Below are positions 9,001-21,000 of a DNA stretch of 64,000 nt, one piece after another. Source of the stretch: Trypanosoma brucei. Taxonomy: Eukaryota. Position 1 is the first letter of the stretch. Every line of letters begins with the position of its first letter. The stretch covers positions 192,001-256,000 of the forward strand of contig CP000068.1 in NCBI GenBank assembly GCA_000002445.1, read 5' to 3'. The position numbers were made by a program.

Positions 9001-12000
9001 TTCGGCCATTGTGAACAAATCGCAAAACCACGTCAAGGCAACCACCTGTCCTTACCAGTGTGCGTGAGGTTGCCATAATTTGCATCATAAATTGCTCCCC
9101 GTAGATGCCGATGGATCTTTGCGGTTGCTTCATCCATGCAGTGACTCGCATGTGAAATGCATGACCATCCTATTGTTTGGTTGCAGAACACAGGCTGGAG
9201 TGCTAAACGCATCCTTCCCAAGCCTCGACGCGTCGTCCGCCGCAACAGAAACGGTATCCACGGCTTCAACACTTTTCCGCAACCGCCCGCGTCCTGAACC
9301 GCCAGTGTGCTCCTCTTGCCCGACCTCCCTTTTCTTTTTTTAAAAGTTTCATCGCGTCCGATTAACTGCTGCTCTCCGTTCTTACGCTTCGTGGTGGTCT
9401 CTTAGTTCTCAACCCATCTCACTTTCCGCGCAGTATAGGACTGTGGCACCGCGCAATCAACTGATACGCATATTTGAACAGGCTTTGCAGTAGCTTTAGC
9501 TTCATCCAATGCCAAGCCGTCAGTATTTTCCCTATTCCCCTTCTTTCCAGCGATGGTGGCTGGAAACTCAGTTATATGAATGTGTTCTTAACCGCGGAAG
9601 CGAAAAGAAGCAACCTTCAAAAACTTTCCTCCCTTTAAATGTTTCATTCCGCAGCCAAACCTTTGTTAGTGAGGGCATTCGTCTTGTTTCCTTCCTGACT
9701 TAATGCATATCCAACTTAGCTTCGTCACTGGCATTCTCTGCACTCCTGCATGTTCCACCCTCATTTTTTTTTCTTCTTCCAAACCCATCACTATTTATCC
9801 GTTTCATGACACACACGCATATATGTATTGTCCATGCGCCATTTGGTCGTCGTCTCCGCATTCCTTCGGCAAACGTTTACTTTCATTATCTTTTAAGAAT
9901 TTCCTTTTGAATAATTAAATGTGTATAAGTAAAAAACTTGACGGAAGAGATAAGGGAGTGAGATGAGGTGCAATGACGCCAATCAGTTGTTACCTCCCAC
10001 CCCCAACGCACGGCCACGCGCATGCGGTGCGTTTGGAGCAGGTGTGAAGCAAAAGACAAAAGGAAAGTTATAATTTAGCAATTTCTGCCCACTGATCGCG
10101 TGCGAACGCACTGTATTAACCTTAAACCCGTGTGGTTGGCGGGAAAGATTATCTTTGACGCGTGATGGAAAGGGGGGGGGGGGAGCGGCGCGGGCGGGCA
10201 CCACATACATCTCTGTGTGTTGTCGTCTTTTTTCTTCAAATACTGCTTTTCTTTTCTTTTCTTTTCATTCCTTTTTAAAACCCGCAGCTCACAACGAACT
10301 AATTTCGCAAACTAAATACACCCCGTGAATTTCCCCCCTTGCTCCTTGCGCGTTGAGAGGGGTACTTCCGTTATTTCCCTCATGGCCGTTTCTTTTTTTT
10401 TTCCCCTTAAACTTCTTTTCCCCTTTTAATTCATTAAGAAAGAGGAATCAAAACGCACACCCGCAATTCTCGCTCGTTTTTTTTTTGCGGCCATAAGGGC
10501 GGTTTTTTTTTCAAATTTATTTATTTAAAAATAAATAAATATATATATATAGATAGAACGCTGAACGTGTAGGACTGTTTCCCCCCTTTCCCACCTCACC
10601 ACCATTAACTCGCTTTTTTCCTTTTTTTCGTAATACATGTCATCTTATTCCCTCAACTTTCCTTTCCATCATGTCATGGGTTTTAAAATAAAGGGAAGCA
10701 CAAACAGACAAACTCAGCACCACTGGAACATCCCTGATATACCAAAAGCAAAAGAAAAAACTTGTATAGATACGTTGGAATATGAGTTTTGTGCTGATGA
10801 TACGAAACAAAAAAACAACAAACAAAAGCAGGAGGATGACGCAACGCCATGAACAAAAATATGTTTCAAGGAAAAATGTTTGTATGAAATGCCGTCACCC
10901 TCCCCACGCATTAGTCATCAGTCAAAGCAATCAAATATGCTAATCAAATTAATATCAATGATTTTTTTTAAAAAAAAGTAATTTCTATTTTTACTTCAGA
11001 CAAAAAATGAGAAGGCGGAGCCAAAATTATAAAAATATTTATACCTGCATAAGCTCATAAGAATATATATATATATATAAATACCATTAAATATAAAAAA
11101 GAAAAAAGTCAACATATGACCCTTCTCGCTATTTCTCCCTCATTCCTTTTTATCTTACAAAAACCCATTTCACCAATTTACACCAGTGAAGCGGTCATAT
11201 GTTGGGGGAGGCGAACTCCCGCCCCCTTTTCTCTTTTTTTCCCTTAATTTTGTGTCTTCTCCATTAATTTCCAGCTAAAAATTCTTTCAGTTTCCTTCTT
11301 ACTGCTGCAGCTTCCGATGAAAATATTACCGCAGACGTGAGGTGAAGAAGAAGAGGGAGGGGGAGGGGGGAGGAAACAAATAACGCATTGGCATAAAAAT
11401 TTTGGTGCATGTGCATATGTGCAAAATTCTAAAGAATATTACCTTCTAAGACGTCAGATCCCAACTCCTCCTCCTTCCCTTTCTTTTCCACCTGTCCTTC
11501 CACCTCATCCCTTTTTTTCATGTGCCACCTGAGGAGGAGAAACAAAAGTATCAGCAAAACGAGCGGGACAACAATCGCAACGACCAAAACGGCTACGCTA
11601 ATTCCCAATGGCGCAGTATCACGTGCCTTCTGGATAAGTTCTTCCTCTTCCTCAGTATTGTTGGGAAGTATAATTTCACGGGAAATATCAACATCATGTT
11701 TTCCATTTTCCCCCAAGACAGTGGTGCGTTCCAATTTGTCCTTCCGTTGCTTAACGAATTCGGTTACGTTTCGAAGAATTGATTTTGGCGTCTCCTCATC
11801 AGTTTCAAGCAAGGTGTAGATTTTGTAAAGCACCACCAACTTTGTCTCGGCGACGTACACGGCGCGTTGTGCCTTCCTCAACTCCGTCACAATCGCATGA
11901 GTTTTGGTCATTGCCCTTTTGTAATCGCCTAACCATCCTTCCCAAGCGGTACAGATATCCGGGCCGCTGTACTTGCTCTTATCTTCACATGGCGGCTTAC

Positions 12001-18000: not shown

Positions 18001-21000
18001 AGCTCTTTGGCATCCCGTAAGTCATCCCTCGTTTCATTTTCCGCCTCTTCGCAAAACTCCTTAAGTTCTTTTTTAGCGTCGTCATCCGAATCTGGATCGC
18101 CACGGCCAGAAAGTGAGATCACCTGACTGCCAAAATATCCTACCCGCTTCCGGTAGTCCTTGAGATGCGTCACATTGTCTTCAGCCTTCTTGACGAGGTT
18201 GTCTGCTCCTTCTGTTCCAATCTTTTGTACGGTTTCTTTCAGTGCACACAACGCATTGGCGCCGTCTCGGCTAAGCTTTCCGTCTGCTACGTGTTGCGCA
18301 TCGCTGCTCGACTCCGCGAGTTTGCCAGAGTAACAGACAAGCAGCACGAAGCCGAGCCCAAGCACAATAGTACGCGACATTTTCGTTTATAGTAACGTTG
18401 ATGGTACCCAGAAAGTTAGTGCCAAAGCTCTGGTCAGCCGAAAAGCAAAAAATAAAAGATAAAAAAGGGTAAAACGGAGGAAATCGAAGGGAACAAATAC
18501 AACACATCACTTGGTTAAAGTTGGGGGGCACCACACACCACCTCACGAAATGACTTAACGCTTGGCACAAAACCCACCTTTGCTGCAGTCACCGGTGACA
18601 GACACACGCAATTTAACAAGGCGTAAACGAAACTCTCGTTTATGAGCACCCAGTCATAGAGCTACAGAAATAATTCCCCGAATGGCCCTATCTGGAGCGA
18701 CTGCACATACATCATCATCTGTTGTTAACAGGAGACGCGGCTCAGAGCACACAGTTTTGCAGAGGAACATTTCCCGTCGACGAAAAATGGCGCAAATATT
18801 GAAGCGTCATCACGATGAAGAAAGTAACGTGCCCTAGTAAACAACAATATGAATCCGCCGAACGCACGGGATGAATTATGTGCATGCGACGGCTAACGGT
18901 AAGCAGCTTTCACGGCATTTCATACCGTAGCAACACTCGACCCATAACTGAGTTGGGGATCTTCGGACGATTGTACACGCCTGTAAAATGTTTTCCATGC
19001 TCTTCGCTACATTTTTGAATATGTGGTAAAGAGGTGATGCAAACGTATTTTCAATGTCCCCAGTGGTGACTCATAACAACTGGTGCCAGACACATGGTTG
19101 CAGCGTTTGCGTGAAGCGGAGTGCTGAATTTTCCACAACACAGCGCGTTGCGAATGGAGTCCGTGGGTCGATCGTGTTTGCTACAGACGGGGAAATGATA
19201 ACACGGTAATCGATTCCGAAGTAGCAGACATACCCAAGCGCATGTGCAAAGGAGGTGTGTGCAAATAATGAGTACTCCCGTACAAGCTTCAGATTACGGG
19301 AGAAACGCTGTAACTTTATTTAACCATCCCCTCCTTCTCAGCTATCAAAAGAAGCAACTTAAGATATACATTCGCATGTTGACTAGACCATAAAAAGCAT
19401 AACTTCGAAAGGCATAGTCGTATCCACAAATATTAAAATACCTCCAACTAACTGCATCACATTCGGAACAGTAGTAATAAGCTATGTAAGTGAACCCCCT
19501 CGAATCAGACGACATGACTAGTTCGTCCCACTCTTATTTGAGTCGACTTACCTTTTTTTTTTTGGGTTGCCATCTCTTTTTTTTTTAAAAAATGCAAAAT
19601 TAATGATGTAGTCATTAGCAACGACTCATGCTGCAGTTGGCTACCGAATACCAACATAAAAACACAAACGTCACCAACAAAACGTTTGCGAAAGAAATGA
19701 CACTTTTGAAGCTTCCATCGGCGAGTAGATGAAAGCAATATACATTATCTGTTCACTATCTTAATAGTAATAAATAACGCTCACTCCTATCTCCACGTGA
19801 TTAGCAACGCAACGGGACAATACTTCATTTGCTTCAGCAATTCATCCAGCAGAGACATGCCAGAAGAATTTCCCTTCCAGATATCACTGCATTTTACCAC
19901 TGGTACTGAGGTGGGTTATCCACAACAAAATGTTCAATTTTGTTTTCTTTTGTTCACTTATTTCATCAGTCTGATATCAACAGCTTTACCAATCTTGTTT
20001 CTTTTCGAAAAGCCAAATATTCTTCCTTAATAATTACTCCAGTTTCTGTTGACGTCTGAACATTATAGTGGTCAGGGCTGCTCGGACATGCGATGCATTT
20101 TCAATCCGCGTTTAGCAGGGTTGGCATACCAAAGCACATTGGAACTAAGCGCCTCCAGGCCAATGAAATACAATACACCTATATGTAATATTGAACGGAG
20201 ACTAACGGCAAAACAAGCGACGAGAAGCAAAAATTCGCATTCAAAGATACAACCACAACTTACAAACATTTTATTTTTGAAATGCATGTAGCGCGTAAGT
20301 CCGTGTACATCACTACCAATGCGTATGACGACTATTTTTTTTGCTTTCCTTTTTGAGAAGTTTCGAAAGACCAAGACAAGACAGAGGGTTTGCCAGTCAT
20401 CGACGTCATCTCGGAATTCTTCAAAAGGGATCAAGAAGAACAAAATTTCCCCTTGAAGATGAAATTAAAACAAGTTACATGACTCTAAACCACCCCCATT
20501 TACACAACTCCATCATACAACAGCAACCAAAACACTAAAACAGTGGATATCTGTGCACTGACAAAAAAAGAAGGGAGGTGCGAAGCCCAAAGATAAAACA
20601 AACAACACCAGAGAAATTCAAGAGAAACTTGCAAGAATTTGAAGCATAACATGAATTTAGTTTCTTTACCTTTGAACAAATAATTACTATCCCCGCTCCT
20701 GTGGTTAATGCATAGCAAAGCAACTGAAATCCCAAAGTAATTTGGAAGAAAAATACATTAGAAAAAAAAATACAAAAAGTCGGGTTACAAACGAAAAGTT
20801 AAGTACAGCATAGAACACGTATTTTTGTCGTCAAAAAACAGAGTACTTTAGCGCGTAAAAGTATCACAATATCCAAAAAAAAAAACAACAAAGCTGGGCA
20901 ACACCCCTCTCCAGGAAAACAATTCTACAGCTGATGCTAACACCGAAAAAAAGAAAATCAAATGCCACACACACAAAAAAAAATACGTGACAGGATCACA

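What the first reader, a model, noticed from the sequence alone, without database searches (positions are those of the whole stretch)
11429..18380. Tandem array of three ISG-like type-I surface protein genes with divergent ectodomains
The three paralogues are 401-428 aa. They share their architecture (signal peptide, Cys-containing ectodomain with NWHCGGD and CT[AV]WEGW motifs, one TM helix, short Lys-rich tail) but are strongly diverged in the ectodomain. Lys-rich cytoplasmic tails are the known ubiquitylation and internalisation signals of T. brucei ISG65/ISG75. Paralogue 3 has a degenerated version of the conserved Cys motif (HRHCGE), suggesting diversification under selection.
Basis: partly seen in the sequence, partly recalled or inferred. 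Interest (0 to 1): 0.5.

Follow-up and report, generated by a model that had tools for sequence, protein, structure and literature searches.

The report
Known ISG-like trypanosome gene trio

Summary
Three minus-strand ORFs of 428, 421 and 401 aa sit at the stated coordinates, with a signal peptide, one TM helix, a short Lys-containing tail and the quoted motifs.

The sequences are identical to T. b. brucei TREU927 XP_844735-7 (Tb927.5.610/.620/.630). Tb927.5.630 is AcP115, cloned in 2000 as a bloodstream-stage ecto-phosphatase. It was later called 'ISG65-like' and a 'distant ISG paralog', and its abundance falls when ISG deubiquitinases are knocked down.

The suggested ongoing diversifying selection is not supported:
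- Synonymous sites between the paralogues are saturated.
- The brucei and gambiense orthologues are 99.3-99.8% identical, with pooled pN/pS 0.28.
- The 'degenerate' HRHC motif lies within normal family variation.

One small extra is a 260-nt near-identical patch (trans-splicing region, 5'UTR and signal peptide) shared only by .610 and .630, which implies gene conversion.

The array lies about 3.6 kb from the chromosome 5 centromeric 148-bp repeat. The finding is already known and of low interest.

The parts
11429..12715 (-). Paralogue 1 CDS, 428 aa, 47.7 kDa. Inferred to be Tb927.5.610 (XP_844735, annotated 'acidic phosphatase, putative'). Signal peptide about residues 1-24, ISG65-75 domain residues 10-286 (window 11858-12688), TM about 372-397 (window 11525-11602), 31-aa tail with 5 Lys, 3 sequons.
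   Evidence: AF2 model pLDDT 77.6 with helices 40-97, 101-147 and 262-304; Foldseek match to ISG65 8ovb_C E 1.4e-10
14605..15870 (-). Paralogue 2 CDS, 421 aa, 47.7 kDa. Inferred to be Tb927.5.620 (XP_844736, annotated 'invariant surface glycoprotein' / 'T. brucei spp.-specific protein'). ISG65-75 domain residues 9-289 (window 15004-15846), TM about 372-398 (window 14677-14757), 23-aa tail with 3 Lys, 8 sequons.
   Evidence: sister to paralogue 1 in 100 of 100 NJ bootstraps
17175..18380 (-). Paralogue 3 CDS, 401 aa, 43.7 kDa, 8 sequons. This is Tb927.5.630 = AcP115 (XP_844737; clusters at >=90% identity with AAF44723 'acidic phosphatase'). ISG65-75 domain residues 10-276 (window 17553-18353), TM about 349-371 (window 17268-17336), 30-aa tail with 4 Lys.
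12660..12919 (-). Copy A of a 260-nt patch about 99% identical to copy B: 204 nt upstream of the ATG (polypyrimidine tract, AG, 5'UTR) plus the first 56 nt of the paralogue 1 CDS (signal peptide). Both edges are sharp.
18325..18584 (-). Copy B of the 260-nt patch, upstream of and into paralogue 3. Paralogue 2 lacks it. Both copies are also present in T. b. gambiense.

Best explanation
The window is Trypanosoma brucei brucei TREU927 chromosome 5. The three ORFs are the reference genes Tb927.5.610, .620 and .630, an old tandem array of distant members of the African-trypanosome ISG65/ISG75 superfamily. (The ID of .630 is documented; .610 and .620 are inferred from gene order and annotation.)

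Each gene encodes a type-I membrane glycoprotein with these parts:
- a cleavable signal peptide;
- an ISG65-type elongated three-helix bundle with a loop-rich, disulfide-bonded membrane-distal head;
- a low-confidence, probably flexible stalk;
- one TM helix;
- a 23-31-residue cytoplasmic tail with 3-5 lysines.

Shown here: family membership, predicted fold, topology, identity to the reference genes and conservation between subspecies.

Shown in the literature:
- Tb927.5.610 and .630 mRNAs are up-regulated in bloodstream forms.
- Tb927.5.630 (AcP115) is a heavily N-glycosylated bloodstream-stage glycoprotein of about 110 kDa. It carries Golgi-made poly-LacNAc glycans and was reported as an ecto-phosphatase.
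- Its abundance falls when the ISG deubiquitinases TbUsp7 or TbVdu1 are depleted.

Inferred: like ISG65 (complement C3 receptor), the three proteins act as invariant, host-facing binding proteins beneath or through the VSG coat, each with its own as yet unknown ligand. Ubiquitylation of tail lysines followed by endosomal sorting would set their copy number.

The duplications are ancient, because synonymous sites are saturated, and the copies are now under purifying selection. Only the 5' processing region and signal peptide of .610 and .630 have been homogenised, by gene conversion.
For: Identity: exact-sequence look-up gives XP_844735/6/7 on a 1,608,198-bp contig.

Family: Pfam ISG65-75 matches end to end, 295-337 bits against a cut-off of 25. 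A profile of the three proteins searched against 1.84 billion representatives finds only 26 proteins; the ten looked up by name are all African-trypanosome proteins, mostly annotated ISG or ISG-like.

Topology.

Expression, glycosylation and turnover: PMC2771046, PMC2443814, PMC4003530, PMC4619645.

Age and constraint: paralogue pS is 0.72-0.79, i.e. saturated. Between T. b. brucei and T. b. gambiense there are 7 synonymous and 7 non-synonymous differences, pooled pN/pS 0.28, and the locus is colinear at 98.35% over 15 kb.

Conversion patch.
Against: No ligand is known for any of the three, and their head loops are not conserved with ISG65 (21-24% identity overall).

The only biochemical activity ever reported for one of them is phosphatase activity, not ligand binding.

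No surface location or protein-level expression was found for .610 or .620 in the text-searchable literature.

The DUB-knockdown effect on .630 is modest (about 25%).

Structures are predictions from a 19-sequence alignment. Head and stalk regions have pLDDT below 70.
Confidence: 0.85

Rival explanations
1. The proteins are what two of them are annotated as: membrane-bound acid ecto-phosphatases whose ectodomain dephosphorylates extracellular or endocytosed substrates.
For: Tb927.5.630 falls in the same 90%-identity cluster as AAF44723 'acidic phosphatase'. Bakalara et al. 2000 purified AcP115 by activity, and later papers report that the E. coli-made protein hydrolysed phosphopeptides and ATP (PMC4003530). 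A review describes it as a possible new phosphatase class with no homology to known ones (PMC3095255).
Against: No phosphatase family appears in Pfam even at E<=1. The PDB sequence search returns only ISG65 chains, and no phosphatase appears among the top 50-60 structural matches of either fold search. The fold is an all-alpha bundle shared with ligand-binding receptors. None of the His-acid-phosphatase, HAD or PPP motifs occurs in any of the three. A PTP-like CX5R occurs in P1 and P2 but not in AcP115 itself, so it is not conserved. The annotation of .610 rests on similarity to .630 only. I found no independent replication of the activity in the searchable literature.
Confidence: 0.1
2. The array is undergoing diversifying (positive) selection on the ectodomain, driven by host immunity, as the first reader suggested from the HRHCGE variant.
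For: Ectodomain identity among paralogues is only 28-37%. ISGs are immunogenic (PMC11065263).
Against: Synonymous sites are saturated (pS 0.72-0.79), so paralogue dN/dS is uninformative; where it can be computed it is about 0.3. Orthologues in T. b. gambiense differ by 0-4 residues, with pooled pN/pS 0.28 and P2 having no amino-acid change. The TM and tail are more diverged than the ectodomain. The NW-to-HR change is within the normal range of this motif across 19 family members.
Confidence: 0.05
3. They are ER-resident 'invariant glycoproteins' (the IGP family), retained internally rather than exposed on the surface.
For: The IGPs are trypanosome-specific type-I glycoproteins of similar size, and they are ER-localised (PMC4497807).
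Against: The representative IGP genes named in that paper are on chromosomes 2, 6 and 9 (Tb927.2.5330, Tb927.6.380, Tb09.v4.0147), and no Tb927.5 gene is mentioned. [quoted passage not shown] AcP115 carries TbGT8-dependent poly-LacNAc glycans made in the Golgi, so it leaves the ER.
Confidence: 0.04

Closest known systems
ISG65 (T. brucei complement C3/C3b receptor; PDB 7pi6, 7zgj, 8ovb)
   Different: Only 21-24% identical. The three genes form a separate clade with Tb927.5.310 and a T. congolense protein. Head loops are not conserved. No C3 binding or any other ligand is known. They sit on chromosome 5 next to the centromere, not in the chromosome 2 ISG65 array.
AcP115 (Bakalara et al. 2000, J Biol Chem 275:8863; Tb927.5.630)
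   Same: Paralogue 3 is this gene: 401 aa, 43.7 kDa and 8 sequons, matching the published table for Tb927.5.630, which that paper names AcP115.
   Different: Nothing differs for paralogue 3. For paralogues 1 and 2 (28-30% identical to it) the 'phosphatase' label is transferred by similarity only. The published enzymatic activity has no structural or motif support here.
ISG75 (PDB 8rd2) and ISG64
   Same: Same superfamily and Pfam domain. ISG75 is recovered by Foldseek at E 5e-8 to 3e-6. ISG64 is recovered by the profile search at E 2e-27.
   Different: ISG75 is about 100 residues longer, has a different C-terminal region and aligns poorly (5-17% identity). ISG64 groups with ISG65, not with this trio.
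TbgISG43 (Tbg972.5.200; Sulzen et al. 2024, PMC11065263)
   Same: An 'orphan' ISG of about 43 kDa, shown by SAXS and HDX-MS to have a three-helix bundle and a disordered C-terminal linker. The same architecture is predicted here.
   Different: It is probably the orthologue of Tb927.5.310, which lies outside this window. That is inferred from its gene number and from a V...R spacing that fits the 393-aa gambiense protein and not Tb927.5.630. It was not verified directly.
Other trypanosome three-helix-bundle surface proteins (HpHbR, factor H receptor, MISP, GARP)
   Different: They are GPI-anchored rather than TM-anchored, have no PF11727 match, and belong to different life stages or have known ligands.

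Membership tests
ISG65/ISG75 superfamily (Pfam PF11727) | Sequence match to the ISG65-75 domain above the curated threshold | tested here: met
   323.6, 336.6 and 295.5 bits against a cut-off of 25.1, covering profile positions 1-281
ISG65/ISG75 superfamily (Pfam PF11727) | Elongated three-helix bundle ectodomain with a membrane-distal head | tested here: met
ISG65/ISG75 superfamily (Pfam PF11727) | Type-I topology: signal peptide, single C-terminal TM, short cytoplasmic tail | tested here: met
   Hydropathy analysis, positive-inside flank, and sequons and conserved Cys all N-terminal to the TM. No dedicated SignalP or TMHMM was run; the TM position of P3 agrees with TMHMM residues 349-372 in PMC4619645.
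ISG65/ISG75 superfamily (Pfam PF11727) | Family-wide conserved Cys and Trp framework | tested here: met
   C45, C180, C198, W220 and W251 (P3 numbering) are invariant, and C245 is nearly invariant, across 19 family members
ISG65/ISG75 superfamily (Pfam PF11727) | Restriction to African trypanosomes | tested here: met
   Only 26 hits among 1.84 billion representatives. The ten looked up are all from T. brucei, T. congolense or T. vivax; the other 14 non-self hits were not looked up.
ISG65/ISG75 superfamily (Pfam PF11727) | Ubiquitylation of cytoplasmic lysines drives internalisation and turnover | not testable with these tools
   Lysines are present (5, 3 and 4). Indirect literature support exists for Tb927.5.630 only, from DUB-knockdown SILAC (PMC4619645).
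ISG65/ISG75 superfamily (Pfam PF11727) | Bloodstream-stage expression at the cell surface | not testable with these tools
   Literature only. Tb927.5.610 is up 3.9x and .630 up 3.7x and 2.2x in bloodstream forms. AcP115 is described as a stage-specific ecto-protein. No localisation data were found for .610 or .620.
Acid or protein phosphatases (histidine acid phosphatase, PTP, PPP/PPM, HAD) | Recognisable catalytic domain or signature motif | tested here: not met
   No phosphatase Pfam family at E<=1. RHGxRxP, DxDx[TV], GDxHG and GNH[ED] are absent from all three. CX5R is present in P1 and P2 only and absent from AcP115.
Acid or protein phosphatases (histidine acid phosphatase, PTP, PPP/PPM, HAD) | Phosphatase-like fold | tested here: not met
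Acid or protein phosphatases (histidine acid phosphatase, PTP, PPP/PPM, HAD) | Measured phosphatase activity | not testable with these tools
   Reported for native and recombinant AcP115 by Bakalara et al. 2000, as cited in PMC4003530 and PMC3095255. The original paper is not held.
IGP family (ER invariant glycoproteins, Allison et al. 2014) | [quoted passage not shown] | tested here: not met
   The representative IGP genes named in the paper are on chromosomes 2, 6 and 9, and no Tb927.5 ID appears in it. The proteins here carry the ISG65-75 domain.

The most novel reading that the evidence does not exclude
The reported ecto-phosphatase activity of AcP115 is genuine and resides in the ISG-type three-helix-bundle ectodomain. 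That would make this trio a catalytic offshoot of a receptor fold, and a phosphatase class with no relative among known enzymes. My evidence shows only the absence of any known phosphatase signature, not the absence of activity. A less radical reading is also not excluded: the three are orphan receptors for distinct host serum factors, by analogy with ISG65 and complement C3.
Probability: 0.1. Interest if true: 0.6.

Novelty: already known. Interest (0 to 1): 0.12.

Why it matters
The practical value is mainly one of annotation. Two of the three genes still carry the name 'acidic phosphatase, putative', although their sequence, predicted fold and published proteomics all place them in the ISG receptor superfamily.

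ISG65 turned out to be a complement receptor. Orphan, invariant, bloodstream-stage ISG paralogues conserved between T. b. brucei and the human-infective T. b. gambiense are therefore reasonable candidates for further host-factor receptors, diagnostic antigens or drug-uptake routes.

That idea is already current in the field. Nothing in this window changes it.

Tried and rejected
- Word-indexed homologue search, tried three times (whole P1, the three-sequence profile, and the P2 ectodomain only), returned only the query genes themselves. The exhaustive profile search was needed to see the family.
- I first suspected the ER-resident IGP family. I rejected this after reading Allison et al. 2014, which concerns different genes and a different domain.
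pS is 0.72-0.79, the Jukes-Cantor correction is undefined for one whole-gene pair (P1/P2), and dS exceeds 2 for the other two. I replaced it with a brucei-versus-gambiense orthologue comparison, which has only 14 differences and so little power.
- The original AcP115 paper is not in the library. Its content is cited second-hand.
- I could not confirm directly whether TbgISG43 equals Tb927.5.630. Residue spacing favours Tb927.5.310 instead.
- An Rfam scan of the window found nothing.
- A Pfam scan of nine broken plus-strand ORFs in 1-5900 found nothing, so that region remains uncharacterised.
- No text-searchable localisation or surface-proteome entry for Tb927.5.610 or .620 was found. Supplementary tables were not searched.
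Full report
**What is there**

Three ORFs lie head to tail on the minus strand, at 11429-12715 (428 aa, P1), 14605-15870 (421 aa, P2) and 17175-18380 (401 aa, P3). They are separated by 1.9 kb and 1.3 kb.

tblastn of the three proteins against the whole window finds only these three copies, with cross-matches at E 1e-27 to 1e-56. No further fragments turn up.

Each protein has an N-terminal hydrophobic leader and one strong C-terminal hydrophobic segment. That segment is followed at once by basic residues, then by a tail of 23-31 residues. 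The seven Cys conserved among the three paralogues and all N-glycosylation sequons (3, 8 and 8) lie between leader and TM, which is a type-I layout.

The tails contain 5, 3 and 4 lysines (13-16%). That is only a little above the 9-11% of the ectodomains.

**Identity**

An exact-sequence look-up shows the three proteins are identical to T. brucei brucei TREU927 XP_844735, XP_844736 and XP_844737, on a contig of 1,608,198 bp. Near-identical copies occur in T. b. gambiense, T. equiperdum and T. b. equiperdum.

The source names are 'acidic phosphatase, putative' for P1 and P3, and 'invariant surface glycoprotein' or 'T. brucei spp.-specific protein' for P2.

P3 clusters at 90% identity or more with AAF44723, 'acidic phosphatase [Trypanosoma brucei]'. 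Its mass of 43.7 kDa and its eight sequons match the table entry for Tb927.5.630, which PMC4003530 names AcP115.

By gene order, P1 is Tb927.5.610 and P2 is Tb927.5.620. This is an inference. It is consistent with two facts: Tb927.5.610 is published as the gene flanking the chromosome 5 centromeric 148-bp repeat (PMC1868937), and that repeat lies at 5977-7814 in the window.

**Family**

All three match Pfam PF11727 (ISG65-75) over the entire profile, at 296-337 bits against a cut-off of 25. No phosphatase family appears, even at E<=1.

By sequence, the only solved structures hit are ISG65 chains, at E about 1e-13.

A profile built from the three proteins was run exhaustively against 1.84 billion representative proteins. 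It retrieves just 26 sequences. The ten I looked up are ISG65, ISG64, an ISG65-like protein, Tb927.5.310, Tb927.5.410, four T. congolense proteins and a T. vivax ISG.

In a neighbour-joining tree, P1 and P2 are sisters in 100 of 100 bootstraps. P3 joins them loosely: the three form an exclusive group in only 28 of 100 replicates. Tb927.5.310 and T. congolense CCD13048 sit next to them, and ISG65/ISG64 form the next group.

**Fold**

AlphaFold2 was run with a 19-sequence family alignment.
- P3: pLDDT 80.3, pTM 0.70, long helices at 38-91, 100-146 and 252-294.
- P1: pLDDT 77.6, pTM 0.71, long helices at 40-97, 101-147 and 262-304.

In both models the head loops and the stalk have low confidence.

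Foldseek against the PDB ranks ISG65 first (E 1e-10 to 1e-11, target-normalised TM 0.76-0.79). ISG75 follows, then the haptoglobin-haemoglobin receptor, factor H receptor, MISP and GARP.

**The phosphatase label**

Later papers state that AcP115 was purified as an acidic ecto-protein phosphatase. They also state that E. coli-made protein hydrolysed phosphopeptides and ATP (PMC4003530), and that it lacks homology to known phosphatases (PMC3095255). I could not read the 2000 paper itself.

Here, none of the classical phosphatase signatures occurs in any of the three. A PTP-like CX5R occurs in P1 and P2 but not in AcP115 itself.

The enzymatic claim therefore stands on old biochemistry alone. The labels on P1 and P3 in the databases do not reflect family membership. 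Others had already noted this:
- 'acidic phosphatase (ISG65-like)' (PMC2771046);
- 'ISG65-like' (PMC2443814);
- 'a distant ISG paralog' and 'ISG-related' (PMC4619645).

**Biology known from the literature**

- Tb927.5.610 and .630 mRNAs are 2-4-fold higher in bloodstream than in procyclic forms.
- Tb927.5.620 was differentially expressed in T. b. rhodesiense field isolates.
- AcP115 runs at about 110 kDa and collapses to 55 kDa after PNGase F. It binds tomato lectin and loses about 10 kDa of poly-LacNAc in a TbGT8 null mutant. It therefore passes through the Golgi.
- In SILAC experiments Tb927.5.630 fell to 75-79% after TbUsp7 RNAi and to 76% after TbVdu1 RNAi, in parallel with ISG65 and ISG75. 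This is indirect support for ubiquitin-dependent turnover through its tail lysines.

**Selection**

Between paralogues the proportion of synonymous differences is 0.72-0.79, which is saturated. The corrected dS is undefined for P1/P2 and exceeds 2 for the other two pairs, so dN/dS is not meaningful.

The ISG domain is the most conserved region (28-37% identity). The TM and tail are the least conserved (15-27%).

I fetched the orthologous locus of T. b. gambiense DAL972 (L001). It is colinear at 98.35% identity over 15 kb. The three genes differ by 4, 2 and 8 nucleotides, which is 7 synonymous and 7 non-synonymous changes in all, for a pooled pN/pS of 0.28. P2 has no amino-acid change. Power is low, but the direction is purifying.

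The 'degenerate' HRHC of P3 is one of many variants of a family-wide (V/I)L-x-x-(H/Y)-C motif. CTxxExW is likewise family-wide.

There is no evidence for ongoing diversifying selection.

**A small extra: the 260-nt patch**

P1 and P3 share a 260-nt patch (12660-12919 and 18325-18584) that is about 99% identical and has sharp edges. The rest of the two genes and their flanks are unalignable or about 28% identical at protein level.

The patch covers 204 nt upstream of the ATG, comprising a long polypyrimidine tract followed by AG and the presumptive 5'UTR. It also covers the first 56 nt of the CDS. This explains why the two signal peptides are identical for 16 residues.

P2 lacks the patch. Both copies are present in T. 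b. gambiense. At one site (position 94) both brucei copies carry C and both gambiense copies carry G. That is a single-site hint of concerted evolution.

The most economical reading is gene conversion, which gives the two genes the same RNA-processing signals and leader peptide. This is an inference, and the splice site was not mapped.

**Context**

- The array lies about 3.6 kb from the 148-bp x 12.4 tandem repeat.
- It is the last transcription-unit segment on the minus strand before a region with no ORF of 180 aa or more (18.4-26.9 kb). In that region the GC skew changes sign.
- On the other side, the plus strand carries a trans-sialidase-like gene, a receptor-type adenylate cyclase and an ORF with a VSG_B domain. 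The neighbourhood is thus rich in surface-protein genes.

**Verdict**

The selection argument is not supported.

The genes are reference-annotated. One has been studied since 2000, and its ISG relationship is in print. The finding is therefore already known and of low interest.

The only open question of substance is what these orphan ISG paralogues bind, and whether the AcP115 phosphatase activity is real.

Noticed in passing
window 5977-7814: Tandem array of a 148-bp unit, 12.4 copies, 99% matches, GC about 0.37. It corresponds to the AT-rich chromosome 5 centromere-associated repeat reported between Tb927.5.600 and Tb927.5.610 (PMC1868937). The T. b. gambiense locus carries the same repeat at about 97% identity.
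   Followed up: partly
window 12660-12919 and 18325-18584: A 260-nt patch, about 99% identical, covers the splice-acceptor region, 5'UTR and signal-peptide codons of paralogues 1 and 3 only. One site is shared within each subspecies but differs between them, which suggests gene conversion.
   Followed up: yes
window 1-5900: GC 0.46-0.52 with strong A-over-T skew (+0.18 to +0.24). It holds only broken ORFs shorter than 165 aa. The nine plus-strand ORFs scanned gave no Pfam match; the minus-strand ORFs were not scanned. It may be a degenerate retroelement of the kind described next to T. brucei centromeres, but this was not shown.
   Followed up: partly
window 18400-26950: No ORF of 180 aa or more. 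The genes to the left are on the minus strand and those to the right on the plus strand, and GC skew changes sign near 22 kb. This looks like a divergent strand-switch region between two polycistronic units.
   Followed up: no
window 26970-39274: A run of plus-strand surface-protein genes: a trans-sialidase-like ORF (BNR_3 plus TS_C domains) at 26970-29420, a receptor-type adenylate cyclase at 31645-35490, and an ORF with a VSG_B domain at a chromosome-internal position, 37790-39274.
   Followed up: partly
window 39300-45950: A 6.6-kb stretch with strong T-over-A skew (about -0.3) and no ORF longer than 169 aa. It was not characterised.
   Followed up: no
window 45969-59752: Of four large plus-strand ORFs (962, 585, 687 and 965 aa), only the 687-aa one (53574-55637) has a Pfam match, an F-box-like domain. 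The others are Pfam orphans.
   Followed up: no
window 11429-12715 and 17175-18380 (database annotation): Public records still name these two proteins 'acidic phosphatase, putative', although they carry a full ISG65-75 domain and no phosphatase signature. The PTP-like CX5R string occurs in paralogues 1 and 2 but not in AcP115 itself.
   Followed up: yes
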